Below are positions 2,293-55,164 of a stretch of DNA of 64,000 nt, one piece after another. The position numbers were made by a program, and so were the translations under genes. A model generated the notes under the pieces. That model ran no database searches. It was given only the letters and a program-made list of their open reading frames with translations, and was not told where the DNA came from. Origin of the DNA: a virus; IMG/VR virus record IMGVR_UViG_3300036781_000230, positions 15,072 through 79,071 of that record, one strand, 5' to 3'. Positions within the stretch are counted from its first letter, which is position 1. Every line of letters begins with the position of its first letter.

Positions 2293-3726
2293 ATGGGATC
2301 ATCTACTTTGCCGCTGTCTATTATCGCCGATGTAACTGTAGTGACATCTTCACCTCAGGTAGCGGCTCCGACCTTTAATATAGGTTTGATTATTGGTCCT
2401 TCAACTGCTATTCCATCGTATGGAGCAAATTCAAGAGTTCGTACGTATCTTGCAGCTACGTACTCTACAGCTATGTTAGCTGACGGATTTACTACTGATG
2501 ACCCTGAGTTTATTTGTGCTCAGATTTATTTCAGTCAATCTCCTCAACCTCAGACACTTCAAATTGGTCGTCAAGATTTAACTGCTATTGCTGCTGCTGC
2601 TCCTGCTGCTTCAGAAGGTGGTACAGGATATGTGGTTGGAGATATCGTAGGAGTGACTCAATCGAGTGCCTCTTTCGGTGAGCTTCGAGTATCTACGATT
2701 GGTACCAACGGCGTAGTTACTGCGCTTACTACAGTTGCTGGCAATCAGGGAACGGGTTATTCTGTAGCTTCTGGCTTGGCTACAACTGGAGGTTCCGGTA
2801 CTGGACTTCAGGTAGATATTACCGCTATTGGAGAAACTCCTCTTCAATCTGTTCAAGTTTGCAGAAATGTTAGTGCTTTGTGGTATCCTTGCATGGTTAC
2901 CACCGCTGTCGACGCTGACCACATTGCTATTTCAGCTTGGGTATTGTCTCAAGTCGGTACAATCTACTTTGGTACTTCCTCAGCTGCTACCGTTCCTGCT
3001 GGAACTGCCGGTAATCCTTTTCTTACCATGTATGGCGCTGGCTCTAAGAGAACCTGGATGCAGTGGGCTACGACGCAAAGCGGACTCATCCCAACACAAG
3101 CATATTTTGTTGCTGCGGTCATGGGTCAAGCTATGGCTTCAAACACTCAACTTGCTAATTCTGCTTTCACTGAAAAGTTTAGCGGTGGAGTTCCTCTCGT
3201 CGGAGTATTCGTAGAACCCAATCTAACTACCACTCAGATTGCTAATATCGAAGGACAGAGCACTTCGCTTGGCCCCAATGGAAATCTTTATCTAAATTAC
3301 GGAAATTCATTCAATGTGCTTGAACAAGGCACCATGATGGCTCCCGGAGTTTTCTTTGATCAGATTTTAAATCTCGATATTCTAGCTTCTAACATTCAGT
3401 TTGCTATCATGAATCTTCTGACTTCATCTCCGAAGATTCCTCAAACTGACGCAGGTCAGCAACTCTTGATACAAGCAGTCGAGTCCGCTCTTACGCAGTC
3501 TGCTAACACCGGATTTATTGCTTCGGGAGTTTGGAAAGGACAGAATATCCTCAACCAGATTACTCCTGGTATGGCTCTTCCAACTGGATTTGCAGTAGTA
3601 TCTCCTCTTTATAAGACTCTTACTTCTGCTCAAATCCAAGCTCGTCAAGCGCCTCCTATTTATGTGGCTCTTATCGAAGCTGGAGCTGTTCACTTCGTGA
3701 CTATCGAAGTTCTTGTACAGGTATAA
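2293..3726 (+). CDS. Contractile tail sheath protein (DUF3383-like)
   Basis: YFSQSPQP, KIPQTDAG, ARQAPPIY, AGAVHFVTI motifs; strong AAGGAG RBS. Confidence 0.9.
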   Translation: MGSSTLPLSIIADVTVVTSSPQVAAPTFNIGLIIGPSTAIPSYGANSRVRTYLAATYSTAMLADGFTTDDPEFICAQIYFSQSPQPQTLQIGRQDLTAIAAAAPAASEGGTGYVVGDIVGVTQSSASFGELRVSTIGTNGVVTALTTVAGNQGTGYSVASGLATTGGSGTGLQVDITAIGETPLQSVQVCRNVSALWYPCMVTTAVDADHIAISAWVLSQVGTIYFGTSSAATVPAGTAGNPFLTMYGAGSKRTWMQWATTQSGLIPTQAYFVAAVMGQAMASNTQLANSAFTEKFSGGVPLVGVFVEPNLTTTQIANIEGQSTSLGPNGNLYLNYGNSFNVLEQGTMMAPGVFFDQILNLDILASNIQFAIMNLLTSSPKIPQTDAGQQLLIQAVESALTQSANTGFIASGVWKGQNILNQITPGMALPTGFAVVSPLYKTLTSAQIQARQAPPIYVALIEAGAVHFVTIEVLVQV

Positions 3727-3740
3727 TCTATAAGTCTCAA

Positions 3741-3831
3741 GGGTTATATGCAATTCGAGTATGAATATACATACATATTTGGGTTGCATATGATTCCATG
3801 GGAATCCAGGATATCTTAGTGATGACCCTGG
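3741..3831. repeat. Dispersed element copy A (ATGCAA-N30-TTGCAT with phased right arm)
   Basis: ATGCAA 3748-3753, TTGCAT 3784-3789, then CCATGG/CCAGG/CTTAG/CCCTGG about every 10 bp. Confidence 0.8.
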
Positions 3832-3878
3832 TGAATACTAATCATCATTTTACTGTTCGGTATTTGAAAGGATAACTC

Positions 3879-4355: not shown

Positions 4356-4745
4356 GTGGAACCCCGAGTAAATCAAAAGGAAGTTAAGGTAGGAGAACAA
4401 TCTTACTCAATTAAGAAGATGGACCCACGACTAGCTTGCTGGCTTTTCTCAGTCCTAGCAGGAAAAGCTCCCTCAGGGTCTTCTTTGTTGGCTGCCTTGG
4501 GAAACTGCTCCAAATCAGAGTTTGATGAAATTCAAGGTCATGCTCTTCGATTTGTGTTCCACTGTGATCTCCAAGATGGGGTGCTTCTAGAGATTCCTAT
4601 TCTCGGTTCTAATGGAATGTGGGCCATCAAAGAACTTAATGATGATCCATCAAAAGTTTATAAGTTGACTACTGAGAGTATCATGTTCAACATAAATCCT
4701 TTTTTAGAAGGAAACAAGTCGACCGACCAACCGTTGAATCGCTAA
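4356..4745 (+). CDS. Tail assembly chaperone (short form)
   Basis: Between tube and tape measure; ends near slippery site T TTT TTA at 4700-4706. Confidence 0.8.
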   Translation: MEPRVNQKEVKVGEQSYSIKKMDPRLACWLFSVLAGKAPSGSSLLAALGNCSKSEFDEIQGHALRFVFHCDLQDGVLLEIPILGSNGMWAIKELNDDPSKVYKLTTESIMFNINPFLEGNKSTDQPLNR

Positions 4746-4954
4746 ATTCTTTCGGATGGGAACCAGCTTTTTATACTAGTCTAAGTCCAATACTCATGAG
4801 ACCAGTAGAAGCTGGACTGTGGAAACTCCACGAAACATTCGATGGAACTTACATAGTGGATGACTTGTTTGACATCCTAGAAATGATGGATGTAAAGATG
4901 GAGAACGAAGCACGAGCCGAAGAATATAGGAGAAGAAAAGAAAATGTCCGCTAA
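4700..4954 (+). CDS. -1 frameshift extension of tail assembly chaperone (gpGT-like, DUF6889-like)
   Basis: -1 frame open from 4700 to TAA 4952-4954, encoding ...MRPVEAGLWKLHETFDGTYIVDDLFDILEMMDVKMENE... Confidence 0.75.
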   Translation, partial: FFRRKQVDRPTVESLNSFGWEPAFYTSLSPILMRPVEAGLWKLHETFDGTYIVDDLFDILEMMDVKMENEARAEEYRRRKENVR

Positions 4955-16100: not shown

Positions 16101-17007
16101 TTCGGCTAGTTTGGCGAGTATTTCTGTTGGATTAGTTCCCCCAGTTAAGGCTCCTACTCTGGTATATACTGGAACAACTGGAACTACAGAAAGAAATTAC
16201 GGAGTTTCTGTAGTTAGTCCTCTTGGAGTAGAAGGTGCTCTCGGAGAATCGACATATGTGGAGAATACCGCATCAACTCTAGATGCTAGCGATTATGTAA
16301 CGATCACATGCCCCACATCATTACAGCCAAACTATCCAACCGGAACCACCTACAATGTGTGGTCTAGTACAGGCACTCCCTATCCCCTTGGGAATTGTCC
16401 AGTCGGCGGATCGATTGTTGATAATGGGACACACAGTGCAGGAACTTATCCAACTCAATTTGCCAACATGACGGCTTTGGCCCTACAGTGGCAAGTAGAA
16501 CTCGGAGGAGCTCTAGGATTCTGGAACTCTAATACAACTGGTAAAGCTCTAGACGTCTATATCAATAGACTTAGCGCTAACACTATAGGAATTGGTTCGA
16601 CCCCAGGAACGAGTCATAACGGCAGTTTTGAAGCAGCTACTATTACTGCTGATACTGGTTTTGCTGGAAGCGGATCGGCTCTTACTAATATTAATGCTGT
16701 AAAAGTTAATGGGGGTTCTCTTCCTACTTCCACTCCATATCTTGCCACTAACGGCACTGGTCAAGTAATTGCTTCAACCAATATTCCCGTTAGATATGTT
16801 GGGACAATAACTTCAGTTGCTGGAACTAGTGATACCCTATCTGTCACTGGTTTAACAACCTCGAATCATTGTTCTATACAATTTACAAACTCAGGATCAG
16901 CTGCTCTTACTGGGGATTTTGTTTCAGTAGGTACCGGCTCATTAACGTGGAATCATTCACTATCTGTAGGCGGTGAGACGGTGGATGCTTTCTGCAATAT
17001 TCCTTAA
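13102..17007 (+). CDS. Large tail fibre/receptor-binding protein with Sec signal peptide
   Basis: MRKFLLYAALVFTLVSTVSA leader, then TPNIGLEIP...WNIPLNYNFNRLD anchor motif; G/S/T- and Cys-rich. Confidence 0.7.
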   Translation: MRKFLLYAALVFTLVSTVSAQYVPTPNIGLEIPANGSNNWNIPLNYNFNRLDQLLSGQLSLPGLSVSGNVTVTGSVTANSFIGAGGAGLATASIASQWSPVYYSASPTGNSFAGVSPFTGLAKYSATGPPSSAVLSDINSLLLTGSNCSTTGTVYSPKSGSCVVAGGVAAGSTQDVQFNTNGAFAADTNFFGYTLGSHTLSTTNQVNSTLFSSKSTNDILNSDMFLTSPTSNDGVPNAFASSYCSPGPCLVTRNTNSADNYDVGTAFPPSGDTLVDHQLGRETYIIHNPPAISAPHTNSPYDCNGFNAATCHTVLFDTVDPTATVQPTSRPGVESASAAFNMWSWNYGNCPNCGNTQWGPAGSMESLYAGFSSQGITQVRTSDVVKHGTGDWSSFYAYFFSDGGQPDYSGEGGNNETIQGGETSDYGHFIVGSGGTANTISLPIVYNSAFTPSSINRNATSGGGYMIDITQGSITGHVTGVDQTLPQNAYVGILPIDTSVTPSTAYGNTTCEMPVPVSTNPNLYGSITCTISNIGGSNSAGFTTGFAELSGDFPEGVTITSAPTPASGGSQTVTFTYVHPHGSTQTMLWQGSNVIGDFLSWDYYTGLNSMKSPFHVYGATDSTHIVAQPRFGGVVINPYNAGVVQTVSSLTQSGTTVTALIYPSTSISAMQPFNKQSAVISGCSDAGFNQTVTNVTLHPAASPNQTVTWTSPGTGSTCATASITLVPATFAFHLYPGAEQFGPAIAAPANLPLLINNVNWTPGDLIEMPHHFDWSGTDLRTTWIVNNATAVFGGNSNGAGHTFQGPGIGGQFKPFNVGIANPCSYYVGCGGNIPPVYMVIFGTGGNPSNGGVNGGGIRLGEAPINGGAGLSIGCADAALGGCSSIDPIIFLQTNENAQGIFEFLPGLSSWALPSLTVGLPSPNSRPGLGTITAGSYHIAGFEDNTLGLNFYGYGSTVLNTLGFCNHNSFTFAISVGTCTNGSRLSTSVGELDAGVLRADASASLASISVGLVPPVKAPTLVYTGTTGTTERNYGVSVVSPLGVEGALGESTYVENTASTLDASDYVTITCPTSLQPNYPTGTTYNVWSSTGTPYPLGNCPVGGSIVDNGTHSAGTYPTQFANMTALALQWQVELGGALGFWNSNTTGKALDVYINRLSANTIGIGSTPGTSHNGSFEAATITADTGFAGSGSALTNINAVKVNGGSLPTSTPYLATNGTGQVIASTNIPVRYVGTITSVAGTSDTLSVTGLTTSNHCSIQFTNSGSAALTGDFVSVGTGSLTWNHSLSVGGETVDAFCNIP

Positions 17008-17095
17008 AAGATTTACGCTCAGACCTCAATAAAGCGTAAATAGGGCGAAGATATTCTTCGACCCAATCTCCTAATCAGAGAGAATCAAGGCAGAT

Positions 17096-17140
17096 GGGAA
17101 GTCATTCGTGAGGATGGCTTCCCGATTTTTCTTCACTTTT
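17096..17140 (+). terminator. Intrinsic terminator/attenuator before lysis module
   Basis: GGGAAGTCAT...ATGGCTTCCC stem followed by T-rich run. Confidence 0.6.
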
Positions 17141-17161
17141 AAAAGTATTGGGGAATAAGAA

Positions 17162-32030: not shown

Positions 32031-32741
32031 TCATCCAATTACCCTCGTTTTGAATGGAAAATTCTCTTTCTCAATCTTATGTTTCTTGATAGAACGCACC
32101 CACATCTTAGTCGTGGCATCCCAACGGAATCGCTTCTCTTTAGCTTTTTCACGGTCATCATAAGACACTAGAGCCTGAAGCACGATGGTCGGCTGTTGAG
32201 CGGAGTATAGAATCTCATCAATCTTATAGTTTTCAAGAACTTTAAGCATCGTCAGAACGTCGAATACTGCACGATGGGCGAACGGATTAAGGAACCCATG
32301 TTCCGCTGCAAGATATGTAAGTTTACGGCTTCGAATCTCTTCTGGATAGTCGATGTCATTCTGAGTATCAATCCAAGGTTTATCATCTCGTTGATCCCCA
32401 AGATCTGTTGCTGTTACCTTCTTGCACCATTCTCGATAAAACTTACGATCGAAGAGTTCTCCATTATGAGCAACTACAGCATCAGCTATATGAACCTGTT
32501 CTGATAGTCTATAGAAAGCTGTTTCTGAATCTAAACCAAATTCATTAAGATCTGCCTGTTGAATTCCAGTGATCTTAGTAATTTCTTCTGTGAGTTCAAT
32601 TCCATCATGCTTTACAAAATAGCTGTCGATTGAGATAGGTCCACGACGCTCCGTGTCCCACAGTACTACACCAACCTCTGTAACGTAATCTTCTACAGGA
32701 TCGAGACCAGTAGTCTCGAAATCTAGTCCTAAAAGACGCAT
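32031..32741 (-). CDS. DEDDh 3'-5' exonuclease (DnaQ-like)
   Basis: DFETTG, AHNG.FD, HRAVFD motifs. Confidence 0.88.
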   Translation of the reverse strand: MRLLGLDFETTGLDPVEDYVTEVGVVLWDTERRGPISIDSYFVKHDGIELTEEITKITGIQQADLNEFGLDSETAFYRLSEQVHIADAVVAHNGELFDRKFYREWCKKVTATDLGDQRDDKPWIDTQNDIDYPEEIRSRKLTYLAAEHGFLNPFAHRAVFDVLTMLKVLENYKIDEILYSAQQPTIVLQALVSYDDREKAKEKRFRWDATTKMWVRSIKKHKIEKENFPFKTRVIG

Positions 32742-32762
32742 TTGTTACTCCGTTTCGGTCAT

Positions 32763-32859
32763 CCCAGGTTAATAATGCAAATAATTAATGAGTATACCTA
32801 TTATAATTGTACGCATATTTTACCTGATTAACCCAGGTTACTCTAGGATACACTCAGGA
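32763..32859. repeat. Dispersed element copy D
   Basis: ATGCAA 32775-32780, N30, ACGCAT 32811-32816, then CCTGA/CCAGG/CTAGG/CTCAGG at 10-bp steps. Confidence 0.75.
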
Positions 32860-32869
32860 TAATGAGTTT

Positions 32870-33058
32870 TCATTTATCTATTGAATTTAACAACACTTTA
32901 CCTAACTTATCACGTAATTCAATAGGTAGTTTACTGATTTCTACTGATACTCCTTTAGGACAGATCGACTCTCCTACGACGGCTTCTCTGAAGGACTGTT
33001 TTTCTTCTTCAGTAAAATTATCTCGAATTTTATTCCACTTCGTATCAAGCATCAACAT
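32870..33058 (-). CDS. Hypothetical protein
   Basis: GGAG RBS; colinear. Confidence 0.5.
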   Translation of the reverse strand: MLMLDTKWNKIRDNFTEEEKQSFREAVVGESICPKGVSVEISKLPIELRDKLGKVLLNSIDK

Positions 33059-33181
33059 ATCATCTCCAATTTACGGTAAGGGGGAGCAGTCCCAGATGTT
33101 GCCCTGCTCCCTTTTCCTCTCCGTTCCCGATGCGCATTATGCTAGTAATCGGGTTCTTATGAGTGAGTCCACTCATAAACT

Positions 33182-41561: not shown

Positions 41562-41730
41562 TGTATCTATATTATACTATGTAAAATGAGTTGTACATAA
41601 CAGTTTATAACTTTATTTCTTACGCGTACGCGCGCGCCTATATAATATTGATAAGAATAATACAGAAACAAAAATGCAAACACCGTCATTTTATTGTGTA
41701 CAACTTGATTTACAAGGTATATACTATATT
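41562..41730. promoter_or_regulatory. Divergent pair of early promoters
   Basis: TGTACA-N17-TAATAT on - strand and TGTACA-N17-TATACT on + strand. Confidence 0.7.
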
Positions 41731-42701: not shown

Positions 42702-42745
42702 GTCATTATTTTATGTACAACTCGTTATACACATGATAATATTGA
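42702..42745 (+). promoter_or_regulatory. Early promoter (conserved family)
   Basis: TCATTATTTTATGTACAACT-...-TAATAT. Confidence 0.65.
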
Positions 42746-42787: not shown

Positions 42788-42952
42788 ATGAAGATTGACA
42801 TCAAGCAGCTTTTAACCTCCTCAACGCTTGGTAGCATTATTCTACTTCATGCTGCTGATTATCTCTTCAGACAGAATGAAGAAGATAAAGTAAATCTAGA
42901 AGCAGTTGGTGTTCTCGATATGCTCAGGAAAGAAATTGTAATCTTTTGCTAG
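42788..42952 (+). CDS. Small hypothetical protein (not in ORF track)
   Basis: AAAGGA RBS, ATG 42788, TAG 42950-42952. Confidence 0.5.
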   Translation: MKIDIKQLLTSSTLGSIILLHAADYLFRQNEEDKVNLEAVGVLDMLRKEIVIFC

Positions 42953-42962
42953 GAGATTCACT

Positions 42963-43148
42963 ATGTATGATTTGTTTGTAGTACCTGTTATCTGCATTGG
43001 GATAGTAGTTTGGTTAGCTCTTAATGAGAATACTTGGTTTGCTTCGAGTGATATACCAATGCTTGAGCAAATTGAAAATGCTCGTTGTCAAGCCGCAGAA
43101 GAACGTAAACTGTTGGAAAATCCAGTAGTCTATACTTTGGAGTACTAA
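42963..43148 (+). CDS. Small membrane protein
   Basis: AGGAG RBS; N-terminal TM segment. Confidence 0.55.
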   Translation: MYDLFVVPVICIGIVVWLALNENTWFASSDIPMLEQIENARCQAAEERKLLENPVVYTLEY

Positions 43149-43680
43149 ACTCATCTTGTATGATGAGTGATGCTCATAGGAAAGCATGGGGAACCATGAA
43201 ACCTTTTGCAATGGGGTGGTTCGTTTTCTTCATGGGAAAAAAACGGAGTAAACTCATCCTATGAGTAGCACTGGTTGTACAAGCAACCAGCAAGGGAGGT
43301 AATAGTGATCTTTAGTAGGCCACTGATAGTCACGTTTATCGTTCTTGCATTTGTAATTGGAGACACAGACCACGACATCGCGCGGTCGGGGAAGCCTTCC
43401 CATAGTGTCTCATCAAATGCAGATCGACATATTTCGCCCGGCTTGGCGGGCGCTATAAATTCCAAGGGATGACATATAGATAGTAAAATTAGATAGCAGT
43501 TTGATACCCTGCTTAAGCGCCGGATAAATATCAAGCACTAAAGAGTCTTGACGCGTAAGTGGGGTATTTCGTAAGTTGTATGATGAGTGATGCTCTTGAA
43601 TCTAACCAAGGCTCGGGACTGACGTACCCAATACGTTCGCGGAAAGCCCCGTTAGATAGAGAGCATCACTGGTTGTATAA
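43149..43680 (+). ncRNA. Cassette of structured non-coding RNA elements
   Basis: 20-nt exact repeat at 43156-43175 and 43576-43595, each pairing with a downstream GAG(C/T)A(T/G)CACT; nested stems; no convincing ORF. Confidence 0.6.
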
Positions 43681-43695
43681 TTGAAAGGAGCACGA

Positions 43696-43962
43696 ATGGC
43701 AAAGTGCGTAGTATGTACATCTCTCAATGCGGAGATTGAACACAACCTCAGGAGCAAATCTCTTGACAAGAAGAATGCCGATGGTTCAACATCCAAAGGT
43801 TTTCATCACCCAACTGGAGCAGTCTTGAAAGCTCTCAAGCGTCGTCGAGCTTTTTATTCTCCTCGTACGAGCCCCCACAAGTTCTGCATACATCATGCCC
43901 CAAAGGGTGAACCTAATTTCGAAGGCGGTACTGGCCGTGCCACCTGGGCAGGAGCCAAGTAA
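43696..43962 (+). CDS. Basic Cys/His-containing early protein
   Basis: AAAGGAG RBS, ATG 43696; CVVC...FCIHH. Confidence 0.6.
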   Translation: MAKCVVCTSLNAEIEHNLRSKSLDKKNADGSTSKGFHHPTGAVLKALKRRRAFYSPRTSPHKFCIHHAPKGEPNFEGGTGRATWAGAK

Positions 43963-44128
43963 TGGCGAGAATCTTTCTTAATAAGAACAACTGGAAATAT
44001 CACGCGAAAGAATTACTAGGTGCTTTGATGATGGCTGCTCTATTTCTTTGCTTGGCTCTTACTCCATTGCTGAGTAAATAAAAGAGTGTAAAATATCGTC
44101 ATTCATCATATTTAAAGTTGACTCCTAG

Positions 44129-44153
44129 TGACCCTGGCATTATGCCAGGGTCA
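44129..44153. terminator. Palindrome between convergent transcription units (overlaps dispersed element copy F)
   Basis: TGACCCTGGCAT-T-ATGCCAGGGTCA. Confidence 0.6.
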
Positions 44154-44179
44154 TTTAGTTTATGAGGATGATATAACAC

Positions 44180-49989: not shown

Positions 49990-50835
49990 TCAATTATATA
50001 CCATCTCAATTAAGTTGTAAACAAAATAATGAGCAGCTGTCACACTTAATTTCGTGTAAGAACTACTCATTTTCGATAAACTGTAAAATTGATTATAGGA
50101 GAATATTCAAAGTTTTAGCAGTTTCTTCTTTAGAATCACAAATAATAACAGAATCATCTAAAGGATCATAGATAGTGAAAAATCCATCTGAGTCAAAACG
50201 AACATTAAATCTTCCAATTTCAACTTCATTATTTTCTTCATTTTCTACTGGTTTATTTTCTAAGTTTGTGAGAATTTCTAAAATGTTCATGTTCAATCTC
50301 CTATATCTATAGTATCAAGAATAGAGAATATGTACACAGAAAAGTGAGCAGCCCTATCACTTTTGTTACTCGTCCCAGGATGAGCGAGGCAACTATTCAA
50401 TGTAGTAGCTATTGCCCATTTTCATGAGTTTCGTAGCGGTTGACCCGTGTCACGTAACCCAATTTTCATTAGTGAAAAGATGATAAAAGTAGTGTATCAA
50501 TATAGAGACGCGCACGGGCGCGTATATCATACAATCATTAAGTTGTACACAACTATTTTACTTTATTTTATGATACCCTAATATCATGTAAAAAGTCTAA
50601 AAACTGCTCATTATTCTGTTTACAACTGAAAATGTGATGATATATAGTTATCCTAGATTGATGCTACACAGTAACACACAAGGAGAAACAACAATGTATC
50701 TATTCCTTCTTCCTTCGATGATAGCAACTCTACTCATCAGTTTCATTCAACTTCGTGATCAGTTTCACTCTGCAAAATAATTCAAAAACTGCTCATTATT
50801 TTGTTTACAACTTCAGAATAACAATGTACTATAGA
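49990..50835. promoter_or_regulatory. Cluster of five early promoters (three leftward, two rightward)
   Basis: Repeated (CTGCTCATTATT)TTGT(T/G)TACAACT motif near 50010, 50330, 50540 (-) and 50610, 50795 (+). Confidence 0.7.
50093..50296 (-). CDS. Small acidic early protein
   Basis: AGGAG RBS, directly after a promoter. Confidence 0.6.
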   Translation of the reverse strand: MNMNILEILTNLENKPVENEENNEVEIGRFNVRFDSDGFFTIYDPLDDSVIICDSKEETAKTLNILL

Positions 50836-54329: not shown

Positions 54330-54372
54330 AATTAATTATACAATCTATTGTACAAAGTTGTACACAACAATA
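54330..54372 (-). promoter_or_regulatory. Early promoter driving the 51.5-54.3 kb operon
   Basis: TTGTGTACAACT...TGTATAAT on - strand. Confidence 0.7.
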
Positions 54373-54748: not shown

Positions 54749-55022
54749 GAGGATGAAAATCTGTGATGCGGGAAACCATCTCTATTTTTTCCACTGTCCA
54801 GGTTGCGGTAATGCTCATGGGTTCTCTACTGAACCAGGTCGCTGGACTTTCAATAATGACTACGTCCAACCTACAGTCCAACCTTCAATTCTGTGCAACC
54901 GTGACGATCCACAGACTCGTTGTCACTCATTCATAGAGAATGGGAACATAAGGTTTCTCAATGACTGTCACCATGTCCTTAAAGGACTCACAGTGACGAT
55001 TCCTGATTGGGATAGTTTTTAG
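54726..55022 (+). CDS. DUF6527-like protein
   Basis: CPGCGNAH, WTFNND...PT..PSIL, CHSFI..G.I.FL.DC.H.L.G motifs. Confidence 0.75.
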   Translation: MFRLVKRERMKICDAGNHLYFFHCPGCGNAHGFSTEPGRWTFNNDYVQPTVQPSILCNRDDPQTRCHSFIENGNIRFLNDCHHVLKGLTVTIPDWDSF

Positions 55023-55164
55023 TTCATTGCTTCAAATGAGTTGCTAGCATACCTTTCTAGAGGGTTAACTCGAGTGCCGGCCGTTTGGAGTGTTGAACTG
55101 GGATAGAGCGTTTCACCTAGCCTATCTCAGATTTCTGTAACAATTAAGCCTATGGAGAAAGAGC

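What the first reader, a model, noticed from the sequence alone, without database searches (positions are those of the whole stretch)
43149..43680. Early ncRNA cassette: conserved closing stems enclosing different structured cargo
Seen: TTGTATGATGAGTGATGCTC occurs exactly twice, 420 bp apart. Each copy pairs with a downstream GAG(T/C)A(G/T)CACT followed by GGTTGTA (43263-43279, 43661-43677). The enclosed sequences differ but both fold into sub-stems. Between them is a third element (TGCATTTG/CAAATGCA, GAGACAC/GTGTCTC) capped by a three-way junction, plus further hairpins. The cassette lies downstream of early promoters in an otherwise gene-dense island. Inference: a polycistronic small-RNA precursor cut at repeated processing stems, possibly RNA decoys against host defence (antitoxin or CRISPR mimics).
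Basis: partly seen in the sequence, partly recalled or inferred. Interest (0 to 1): 0.7.

Follow-up and report, generated by a model that had tools for sequence, protein, structure and literature searches.

The report
Structured RNA cassette between phage early genes
A 547-base gene-free stretch inside an early operon of an uncultured phage folds into a chain of strong RNA hairpins, two of them closed by the same long stem, and most likely marks where the long early message is cut or stabilised; this is a known kind of phage device in an unusually large form.

Summary
The 20-mer TTGTATGATGAGTGATGCTC occurs only at 43156 and 43576 in the whole 79-kb phage. Each copy pairs with a matching 3' arm, giving two elements: 43155-43283 and 43574-43682. 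Between them lie three or four further hairpins, one predicted as a three-way junction.

The 547-nt gap (43149-43695) is the most structured of 19 intergenic gaps in the window. It is more stable on the gene strand than on the other strand, and it has no convincing coding signal. It matches no Rfam family, tRNA, ribozyme or CRISPR/ToxI-type repeat.

No homologous DNA could be reached, so covariation could not be tested. The closest relative phage (68% helicase identity) has an unrelated-in-sequence, same-design cassette. Its long stems have the same layout: 7-11 bp, one 1x1 mismatch (usually G.G), then 11-16 bp. All remaining non-Watson-Crick pairs are G-U on the gene strand.

Best reading (about 0.5): co-transcribed RNA structures whose shared stems are RNase III-type processing or stability sites. 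The nearest known cases are the T7 and SP82 early-mRNA sites. This scan has noted T7-like hairpin families before in other phages.

The decoy idea has no support. The rivals are trans-acting RNAs, DNA-level motifs and hidden micro-ORFs.

The parts
41697..41725 (+). Predicted early promoter P1 of the + strand operon (TGTACA, 17 nt, TATACT)
   Evidence: Promoter scan. The motif TGTACAACT recurs at about 8 promoter-like sites in the genome.
42714..42742 (+). Predicted internal promoter P2 (TGTACAACT ... TAATAT), about 400 nt upstream of the cassette
   Evidence: Pattern listing; sequence read.
42963..43148 (+). Upstream 61-aa gene; its stop codon lies 6 nt before element 1
   Evidence: ORF with GGAG ribosome-binding site. 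Codon-usage score 0.44 bits/codon.
43155..43283 (+). Element 1 (129 nt): lower stem 43155-43164/43274-43283, G.G mismatch 43165/43273, upper stem 43166-43181/43257-43272, branched 75-nt interior
   Evidence: Free energy is -52.0 kcal/mol on the sense strand against -37.1 on the antisense, with 7 against 1 G-U pairs.
43290..43348 (+). Hairpin A (59 nt, 22 pairs); its 5' half holds a GGGAGG + GTG start signal
   Evidence: Free energy is -23.4 kcal/mol sense against -8.6 antisense.
43305..43472 (+). Possible 55-aa micro-ORF (GTG start, N-terminal hydrophobic helix); status doubtful
   Evidence: The Shine-Dalgarno sequence GGAGG lies 5 nt upstream. Against a real gene: codon score 0.02 bits/codon, not in the protein collection, and a single marginal match (E 9.6e-5, to a 1776-aa protein) among 1.84 billion representatives.
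43349..43424 (+). Element B: predicted three-way junction closed by TGCATTTG/CAAATGCA and GAGACAC/GTGTCTC
43435..43452 (+). Short G+C-rich hairpin C; no U-tract follows it
   Evidence: sequence.
43503..43569 (+). Hairpin D: a 13+3-bp stem enclosing a small hairpin
   Evidence: The 43425-43572 region as a whole reaches only z -1.7.
43574..43682 (+). Element 2 (109 nt, rod-like): lower stem 43574-43584/43672-43682, G.G mismatch 43585/43671, upper stem 43586-43597/43659-43670. Its 3' arm holds a perfect TATAAT (43676-43681) and ends 2-3 nt before the next gene's ribosome-binding site.
43696..43962 (+). Downstream 88-aa gene (CxxC ... CxHH, basic). Three homologues at 80-82% identity exist in metagenomes.
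   Evidence: No Pfam or PHROG family. No fold match.
44127..44155 (+). Terminator-like hairpin that ends the + strand operon

Best explanation
The 547-nt gap is transcribed as part of the + strand early operon, from the predicted promoters at 41697 and 42714 to the terminator at 44127. It acts at the RNA level.

Elements 1 and 2 are long double-stranded stems of about 22-27 bp, each broken by a single central G.G mismatch. Both elements carry the same stem sequence. The most likely role is as recognition sites for a host double-strand-specific RNase of the RNase III type.

Cleavage, or simply binding, at these stems would separate the upstream message (ending 6 nt before element 1) from the downstream message (whose ribosome-binding site starts 2-3 nt after element 2). 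Each message would be left with a protective hairpin end. The structured middle piece might also be released.

Shown: the sequence, the predicted folds, the strand specificity and the operon context. Inferred: transcription, cleavage and the enzyme.
For: 1. The repeat and its pairing are far beyond chance.

2. The gap is the most structured of 19 intergenic gaps of 90 nt or more in the window, at -0.37 kcal/mol per nt. The whole-cassette z-score is -7.8.

3. The structure is strand-specific. The + strand folds 37 kcal/mol better than the - strand. The lower stems form only as RNA, through G-U pairs, and not as single-stranded DNA on either strand. Over 9 elements in this phage and its relative, there are 53 G-U pairs on the gene strand against 12 on the other, and all 9 are more stable on the gene strand. 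The background difference in coding windows is -1.9 +/- 5.8 kcal/mol.

4. The arms are not conserved as protein. In el1 the 3' arm overlaps and follows the stop codon of the small frame that starts in the 5' arm, in another frame; in el2 it is read in frame. Cassette ORFs score 0.02-0.10 bits/codon against 0.24-0.44 for the 8 flanking small genes whose frame was read correctly. They have no homologues apart from one marginal match, and no families.

5. Of the 3 differences between the two 3' arms, 2 keep the pair (C/U opposite G). The base pair at the foot of the stem changes on both sides, C-G to G-U.

6. The closest relative, L095 (68% helicase identity), has its own 415-nt ORF-free gap with z -8.8. 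It holds two adjacent long-stem elements of 111 and 129 nt, and a third lies in another gap. All are built as 7-9 bp, a 1x1 mismatch (G.G in two of them, C.A in the third), then 14-16 bp. All other non-Watson-Crick positions are G-U on the gene strand, and X and Y differ by many two-sided pair changes around a shared UUG-CCWWGG core.

7. Stems of at least 22 of 24 pairs: 6 in these two phages (about 100 kb). Block-shuffled copies of all the loci searched (1.19 Mb) gave 5, about 0.4 per 100 kb. One of the 6 is the inverted repeat at the divergent promoters, not a cassette element.

8. Mismatches or loops at RNase III target sites restrict cleavage to one strand and leave hairpin 3' ends that stabilise mRNA. 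T7's early precursor carries five such signals (PMC3867540, read). Phage SP82 early mRNA carries Bs-RNase III sites (Panganiban and Whiteley 1983, cited in PMC4838370).
Against: - There are no expression or cleavage data, and the host is unknown.
- No homologous sequence of this cassette was reachable, so there is no covariation test. Two paralogous copies give almost none: 239 of 500 shuffles do as well.
- The elements are about twice the size of T7 sites and carry 60-75 nt branched interiors. The cassette holds four more hairpins that simple processing does not need.
- The lower stems could partly be a by-product of a direct repeat TTGTA (UGUA pairs with itself through wobble). The same TTGTATRAT word occurs at -10 positions of predicted promoters.
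- The phage encodes no RNase III of its own, so a host enzyme must be assumed.
- The similarity to the relative's cassette is one of design only, not of sequence. The covariance model finds nothing there.
Confidence: 0.5

Rival explanations
1. Precursor of trans-acting stable RNAs. The shared stems are excision or handle modules, and the different interiors (plus the middle hairpins) are the functional products, for instance sponges or decoys for a host protein or defence system.
For: - The interiors are themselves well folded and differ between the two elements.
- At 547 nt with six domains, the cassette is far more than cutting sites need.
- The relative phage also keeps two cargo-bearing elements of the same sizes.
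- The 5' arm is identical over 20 nt while the 3' arm drifts, which suggests sequence-specific recognition.
Against: - No match to any Rfam family even at E up to 10.
- No tRNA-like or tmRNA-like gene.
- No antisense complementarity to the phage genome beyond 12 nt, with E of 2 or more.
- The cargo sequences are not conserved between the two related phages.
- No terminators, and no convincing promoters of their own.
Confidence: 0.2
2. DNA-level feature. The repeated arms are promoter -10 boxes or binding sites for a regulator, or are the ends of two small non-autonomous mobile elements (MITE-like or attC-like) that landed in the intergenic region. On this view the RNA folds are incidental.
For: - TTGTATRAT also forms the -10 region of predicted promoters at 54343 (-) and at genome position about 2760.
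- The 3' arm of el2 gives TAGATA-17-TATAAT, a 10 of 12 match to the promoter consensus.
- The elements share ends but have unrelated interiors, and both are flanked by direct TTGTA.
- The relative L095 lacks the whole + strand island.
Against: - The 5' arms lack the phage's TGTACA(AC) -35 element at 15-18 nt upstream.
- As single-stranded DNA the outer stems do not form.
- The mismatches are G-U on the gene strand only.
- No further copy exists in the 79-kb genome, in IMG/VR or in 185,579 species genomes, where the 2 hits are chance matches in coding sequence.
- The phage has no tyrosine recombinase.
- The attC core pair RYYYAAC/GTTRRRY is absent at the 5' end.
Confidence: 0.12
3. Hidden micro-genes with regulatory mRNA structure. 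Candidates are the 55-aa GTG ORF (43305-43472, N-terminal membrane helix, strong GGGAGG site) and/or the 34-aa ORF in element 1. The hairpins would sequester their start sites, as in type I toxin mRNAs whose 5' and 3' ends pair.
For: - A good Shine-Dalgarno sequence lies 5 nt before the GTG, and it is paired inside hairpin A.
- The 55-aa product has an 18-residue hydrophobic segment.
- End-to-end pairing in element 1 encloses a 34-aa frame with a short hydrophobic core.
Against: - Codon scores are 0.02-0.10 bits/codon, below all 8 flanking small genes whose frame was read correctly.
- Neither the 55-aa frame nor the 91-aa frame on the opposite strand is in the protein collection, so the source did not call them as genes. 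The 34-aa and 41-aa frames were not looked up there.
- The 55-aa frame has only one marginal match among 1.84 billion representatives.
- No Pfam or PHROG match.
- The 34-aa and 35-aa frames have no usable ribosome-binding site and share only their first five codons.
Confidence: 0.1
4. Recent local duplication with no function: leftover non-coding DNA that happens to be palindromic.
For: Only two copies exist and both are in one gap. Other short direct repeats lie in the gap: 43146/43249, and 43291/43463 at 74% identity.
Against: - The identity stops exactly at the arms, while the interiors are unrelated.
- Structure this strong and this strand-specific is not expected of neutral DNA in a gene-dense phage.
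- An independent cassette of the same design occurs in the relative.
Confidence: 0.08

Closest known systems
RNase III processing signals of phage T7 early mRNA (R0.3, R0.5, R1, R1.1, R1.3)
   Same: Both lie between cistrons in a polycistronic early transcript. Both are roughly two-turn double-stranded helices broken by a central distortion. Several sites in one phage resemble each other. Each site sits directly next to the following gene's ribosome-binding site or the preceding stop codon. A host enzyme is presumed (PMC3867540).
   Different: T7 sites are compact hairpins of about 50-60 nt with an internal loop (own knowledge). Here the elements are 109-129 nt, have a 1x1 G.G mismatch and enclose 60-75 nt branched interiors. 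Two of them bracket four further hairpins in one 547-nt gap. There is no sequence similarity, and cleavage is untested.
Bs-RNase III sites in Bacillus phage SP82 early mRNA (Panganiban and Whiteley 1983, cited in PMC4838370)
   Same: Repeated intercistronic stem structures in a phage early transcript that share sequence with one another and are cut by a host RNase III-type enzyme.
   Different: The paper itself was not read here; only the citation was. Host and sequence are unrelated, and the elements here are larger and carry cargo.
Processing stems of bacterial rRNA operons
   Same: Long stems formed by the sequences that flank a structured RNA, used by RNase III to excise different cargo (16S, 23S) from one precursor. 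This is the nearest analogue to the 'same kind of stem, different cargo' logic (own knowledge).
   Different: The cargo here is 60-75 nt of unknown function, and the two stems are sequence-identical. rRNA stems differ from each other.
Transcribed MITEs cut by RNase III (Neisseria Correia elements) and integron attC sites
   Different: No other copies were found anywhere searched. The outer stem needs G-U pairs and does not form as DNA. There is no recombinase, and the attC core motifs are not met.

Membership tests
T7-type RNase III intercistronic processing signal | Lies between cistrons of one polycistronic transcript | tested here: met
   It lies between the 61-aa and 88-aa genes of a + strand operon bounded by predicted promoters and a terminator. 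Transcription itself is inferred.
T7-type RNase III intercistronic processing signal | Double-stranded helix of about two turns with a central loop or mismatch | tested here: met
   10-11 bp, G.G, then 12-16 bp in both elements. The same layout occurs in three elements of the relative L095.
T7-type RNase III intercistronic processing signal | Cleaved by host RNase III | not testable with these tools
   There are no RNA data and the host is unknown. The phage has no RNase III of its own.
T7-type RNase III intercistronic processing signal | Compact single hairpin (about 50-60 nt) homologous to the T7 sites | tested here: not met
   The elements are 109-129 nt with branched interiors. There is no DNA similarity to any of 50,697 phage records.
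Any Rfam 15 RNA family (ribozymes, riboswitches, Y RNA, 6S, ROOL/GOLLD, CRISPR-DR and ToxI included) | Score at or near the family's gathering threshold | tested here: not met
   0 matches at gathering score over the 64 kb. In 42900-43900 the best match at E up to 10 scores 16 bits against a threshold of 50, and none of these matches is a plausible family member.
tRNA / tmRNA-like | Cloverleaf found by ARAGORN | tested here: not met
   0 genes in the window.
Box C/D kink-turn RNA | Box C RUGAUGA paired with box D CUGA in the k-turn register next to a terminal stem | tested here: not met
   AUGAUGA is present in the 5' arm, but the 3' arm has CUGG. The k-turn register is shifted 2 nt from the register that gives the 10-bp upper stem (reasoned).
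Hammerhead ribozyme | CUGAUGA ... GAAA core around three stems | tested here: not met
   The word is AUGAUGA (no C3), and no GAAA follows the stem. No Rfam hit.
Integron attC site | Complementary R''/R' cores (RYYYAAC ... GTTRRRY) that fold as single-stranded DNA | tested here: not met
   The 3' end GTTGTAY matches 6 of 7 positions, and the 5' arm has no AAC core. As DNA the outer stem does not form on either strand.
Integron attC site | Associated tyrosine recombinase, or an array of gene cassettes | tested here: not met
   PF00589 is absent from the complete 79-kb genome, and the controls matched. Only two sites exist.
MITE / Correia-like repeat | Many dispersed copies with the same terminal inverted repeats | tested here: not met
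   Two copies only, both in one gap. None in IMG/VR or in the GTDB species genomes beyond chance. The host genome is unknown.
Type I toxin-antitoxin mRNA (hok-like end-to-end pairing) | Small hydrophobic toxin ORF with a start signal, plus an antisense RNA gene | tested here: inconclusive
   A 55-aa frame with a Shine-Dalgarno sequence and a membrane helix exists, but it has non-coding codon usage and only one marginal match elsewhere. No antisense promoter was called.

The most novel reading that the evidence does not exclude
This phage lineage may carry fast-evolving 'RNA cargo cassettes'. A shared, phage-specific stem with a central G.G mismatch would serve as a handle by which different ~60-75-nt structured RNAs are excised from the early transcript and used in trans, for example to titrate a host RNA-binding defence or nuclease. 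That would be a modular small-RNA operon without a described counterpart in phages.
Probability: 0.15. Interest if true: 0.75.

Novelty: new variant of a known kind. Interest (0 to 1): 0.45.

Why it matters
If the stems are processing sites, RNase III-type punctuation of early messages extends to an uncultured myovirus lineage, whose structural genes match the Pam3 gp33/gp34 families. The form is enlarged and cargo-bearing, with a recurring signature of one G.G mismatch in the stem, which could be searched for elsewhere.

If the interiors are released as stable RNAs, the locus would be a rare example of a phage operon of small RNAs.

Either way it is a clean, compact target of 547 nt for end-mapping and in-vitro RNase III assays.

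Tried and rejected
Searches for homologues that led nowhere:
- blastn of the cassette against 50,697 phage records: no match.
- Exact 15-mer, 20-mer and 3'-arm patterns in IMG/VR and in the GTDB genomes: only chance hits without a partner arm. Two lie in coding sequence, one of them a probable aspartyl-tRNA synthetase gene by its conserved peptide.
- Loci around homologues of the downstream 88-aa protein: only a distant GC-rich phage without a cassette.
- Upstream 61-aa protein: no relatives.
- The covariance model R1 found nothing in three related records.
- Eighty more distant relatives (28-40% helicase identity) showed no comparable cassette in an ORF-free gap.

Readings rejected:
- Box C/D k-turn, hammerhead, attC site, MITE, retron or CRISPR array, and group I/II intron. 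See the membership tests; there are no Rfam hits, no recombinase and no reverse-transcriptase-sized gene nearby.
- Replication origin. The gap is richer in G+C (45%) than the upstream genes (38%) and has no A+T-rich stretch or iterons.
- Terminator or attenuator. There are no U-tracts after the stems.
- Antisense regulator of phage genes. No complementarity beyond 12 nt.

Structure prediction of the 88-aa neighbour gave a weak model (pLDDT 66) and no fold match.

Full report
**Setting.** The window is bases 15072-79071 of a 79,071-bp IMG/VR virus record rated 100% complete. It is a tailed phage with a baseplate wedge protein, portal, family A DNA polymerase, helicases and primase. Proteins of the Pam3 gp33/gp34 families are present. 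No cultured phage shares more than 35% portal identity.

Most genes between about 20 kb and 54 kb are on the - strand. A small + strand island interrupts them. It starts at a divergent promoter region: TGTACA-17-TATACT at 41697-41725. That motif recurs at about eight promoter-like sites, one of them inside the island at 42714-42742. The island runs through tightly packed small genes to a strong terminator-like hairpin at 44127-44155. The finding lies in the one large gap of this island, 43149-43695. This gap sits between a 61-aa gene (stop codon at 43146-43148) and an 88-aa gene (ribosome-binding site at 43685-43691, ATG at 43696).

**The observation.** It is correct.
- The 20-mer occurs at 43156 and 43576 and nowhere else in the window, even with three mismatches; 0 of 100 shuffles gave a match. 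A covariance model of the stem finds only these two places in the whole genome.
- The downstream partners are at 43263-43282 and 43661-43680.
- Register by register, element 1 has a 10-bp lower stem, a G.G mismatch (43165/43273) and a 16-bp upper stem with one A.G. Element 2 has an 11-bp lower stem, G.G (43585/43671) and a 12-bp upper stem.
- The interiors are unrelated in sequence but are themselves folded.
- Between the elements lie a 59-nt hairpin (43290-43348), the predicted three-way junction (43349-43424), a short G+C-rich hairpin (43435-43452) and a further long-range hairpin (43503-43569).
- z-scores: -6.3 for el1, -7.5 for el2, -5.4 for 43286-43430, only -1.7 for 43425-43572, and -7.8 for the whole stretch.
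- Among the 19 intergenic gaps of 90 nt or more in the window, this one has the lowest folding energy per nucleotide.

**RNA or DNA, coding or not.** Several independent lines favour an RNA structure on the + strand.

- Strand and chemistry. The + strand folds 37 kcal/mol better than the - strand. With DNA parameters the lower stems do not form on either strand, because they depend on G-U pairs.
- G-U bias. Over nine elements (six here, three in the relative below), the gene strand has 53 G-U pairs and the other strand 12. All nine are more stable on the gene strand. Ordinary coding windows differ by only -1.9 +/- 5.8 kcal/mol.
- Arm conservation is not protein conservation. Both 5' arms could start a small frame (MMSDA...). 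In element 1 the 3' arm overlaps and follows the stop codon of that frame, in another frame; in element 2 it is read in frame.
- Coding signal. The cassette ORFs score 0.02-0.10 bits per codon. The eight flanking small genes whose frame was read correctly score 0.24-0.44, and long genes average 0.49 in frame.
- Homology. None of the ORFs matches Pfam or PHROGs. The two most gene-like frames are absent from the protein collection, so they were not called as genes in the source.
- The 55-aa GTG frame. It has a good GGGAGG site and an N-terminal hydrophobic helix, but among 1.84 billion representatives it gives only one marginal match (E 9.6e-5, to a 1776-aa protein in five stretches). I keep it as a doubtful part and as a rival reading.

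**What it is not.**
- Rfam 15 gives nothing at gathering score over 64 kb and nothing credible at E up to 10 in the region. ARAGORN finds no tRNA or tmRNA.
- The word AUGAUGA in the 5' arm looks like box C or a hammerhead core. But the 3' arm has CUGG rather than CUGA, the k-turn register is incompatible with the upper stem, the hammerhead C3 and GAAA are missing, and Rfam's models do not fire.
It fails on the core motifs, on DNA folding and on the absence of any tyrosine recombinase in the complete genome.
- A MITE reading fails on copy number. There are no other copies in the genome, in IMG/VR or in 185,579 species genomes, beyond chance hits that lack a partner arm.
- No antisense match to the rest of the phage exceeds 12 nt.

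**Comparative evidence.** Direct homologues could not be reached.
- The 88-aa neighbour has three homologues at 80-82% identity.
- The only related locus found through that protein is a distant GC-rich phage without a cassette.
- The closest relative by helicase (L095, 68% identity) lacks the + strand island and shares no DNA with it.

L095 does, however, have its own 415-nt ORF-free gap on the gene strand (4420-4835). That gap folds at -171.6 kcal/mol, z -8.8. It holds two adjacent long-stem elements: X (111 nt) and Y (129 nt). These sizes match the 109 and 129 nt seen here. A third element, Z, lies in another intergenic gap.

Their stems have the same layout: 7-9 bp, one 1x1 mismatch (G.G in X and Y, C.A in Z), then 14-16 bp. 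Every other departure from Watson-Crick pairing is a G-U on the gene strand. Y folds at -69.8 kcal/mol on the gene strand against -36.7 on the other. X and Y share a core, UUG-CCWWGG paired with CCWWGG-GA, in which the WW pairs are swapped on both sides, and most other stem positions differ on both sides while staying paired. As in the window, the last element ends about 3 nt before the ribosome-binding site of the next gene.

A weaker element of the same layout (7 bp, U.U, 11 bp) lies in another + strand intergenic gap of the window, at 55021-55099. It folds at -27.3 kcal/mol on the gene strand against -12.4 on the other.

Counting stems with at least 22 of 24 pairs, the two phages have 6 in about 100 kb. 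One of these is the inverted repeat formed by the divergent promoters at 41580-41714, not a cassette element. Block-shuffled copies of all the loci searched (1.19 Mb) gave 5, about 0.4 per 100 kb. Eighty-one more distant relatives have 16 in 1.09 Mb.

This is evidence for a shared design in the lineage. It is not evidence of homology for this particular cassette.

**Mechanism.** Taken together, the anatomy fits RNase III-type intercistronic signals:
- a helix of two or more turns with one central distortion;
- a position between cistrons of an early operon;
- an upstream boundary next to the preceding stop codon and a downstream boundary next to the following ribosome-binding site;
- the same stem sequence repeated within one phage.

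Known principle: mismatches or loops at target sites let only one strand be cut and leave hairpin ends that stabilise the message. T7's early precursor carries five such signals (PMC3867540). SP82 early mRNA carries Bs-RNase III sites (cited in PMC4838370). The phage encodes no RNase III or dsRNA-binding domain of its own, so a host enzyme is assumed.

Processing alone does not explain the large interiors or the four middle hairpins. This keeps open the reading that stable RNAs are released. The identical 5' arm against a drifting 3' arm (20 of 20 against 17 of 20, with two of the three changes keeping the pair) suggests that the 5' arm sequence itself is recognised.

**A caveat found on the way.** The word TTGTATRAT in both 5' arms and in the 3' arm of element 2 also occurs at the -10 position of predicted promoters elsewhere. 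The 3' arm of element 2 scores 10 of 12 as a sigma-70-type promoter in front of the 88-aa gene. The 5' arms, however, lack the phage's TGTACA(AC) -35 element at the right distance. Because UGUA can pair with itself through wobble, part of the lower-stem pairing in this phage could be a by-product of that direct repeat. The Watson-Crick-rich lower stems of the relative argue that the lower stem is a real part of the design.

**Verdict.** The locus is best described as a large, cargo-bearing variant of phage intercistronic RNA processing or stability structures, and it is not a member of any curated RNA family. Confidence in the RNA-level, stem-as-processing-site reading is about 0.5. The decoy idea is unsupported. 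This scan has noted T7-like RNase III hairpin families in other phages before; those notes were not tested here.

Noticed in passing
window 43685-43734 and L094 3989-4039: The ribosome-binding site and first ~13 codons of the 88-aa gene are 86% identical in DNA over 51 nt to a distant, much GC-richer phage, although the two proteins are only 35% identical. This could be a mosaic junction or a conserved RNA/regulatory target at the gene start.
   Followed up: partly
window 41597(-), 41697(+), 42714(+), 28472(-), 50534(-), 50544(+), 54364(-); genome position about 2778: A recurring promoter-like module: (T)GTGTACAACT followed 15-18 nt later by a TATAAT-like box. The copy at 54364 (-) is nearly duplicated, including its downstream TTGTATAATTAATTATGAGCA, in the first 15 kb of the genome outside the window.
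   Followed up: partly
window 41618-41640 and about 50500-50525: Odd G+C-rich alternating CG tracts sit directly beside two of the promoter modules in otherwise A+T-rich DNA: ACGCGTACGCGCGCGCC, and TACGCGCCCGTGCGCG on the - strand. They are possible operator sites.
   Followed up: no
L095 4420-4835 and 9486-9580: The relative phage (IMGVR_UViG_3300036828_000354) has three long-stem elements of its own, of 95-129 nt. Element Y is extremely strand-asymmetric: -69.8 against -36.7 kcal/mol, with 12 G-U pairs.
   Followed up: yes
window 55021-55099: A 79-nt + strand hairpin (7 bp, U.U mismatch, 11 bp; 9 G-U pairs) in the gap between two + strand genes of another operon. It folds at -27.3 kcal/mol on the gene strand against -12.4 on the other.
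   Followed up: partly
window 32739-33181: A 443-nt stretch without an accepted gene inside the - strand replication operon. It is moderately structured (-115 kcal/mol on the - strand, z about -4.9 with few shuffles). A 106-aa + strand ORF overlaps it.
   Followed up: no
window 17005-17161 and 3724-3878: Two further + strand intergenic gaps in the structural module fold notably better on the gene strand (z -5.8 and -3.6). They may be terminators or processing hairpins.
   Followed up: no
window 43146-43168 and 43249-43258: TAAACTCATC occurs twice. ACUCAUC can pair with GAUGAGU of the 5' arm, giving element 1 an alternative local hairpin that competes with its lower stem; the global fold chose this alternative.
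   Followed up: partly
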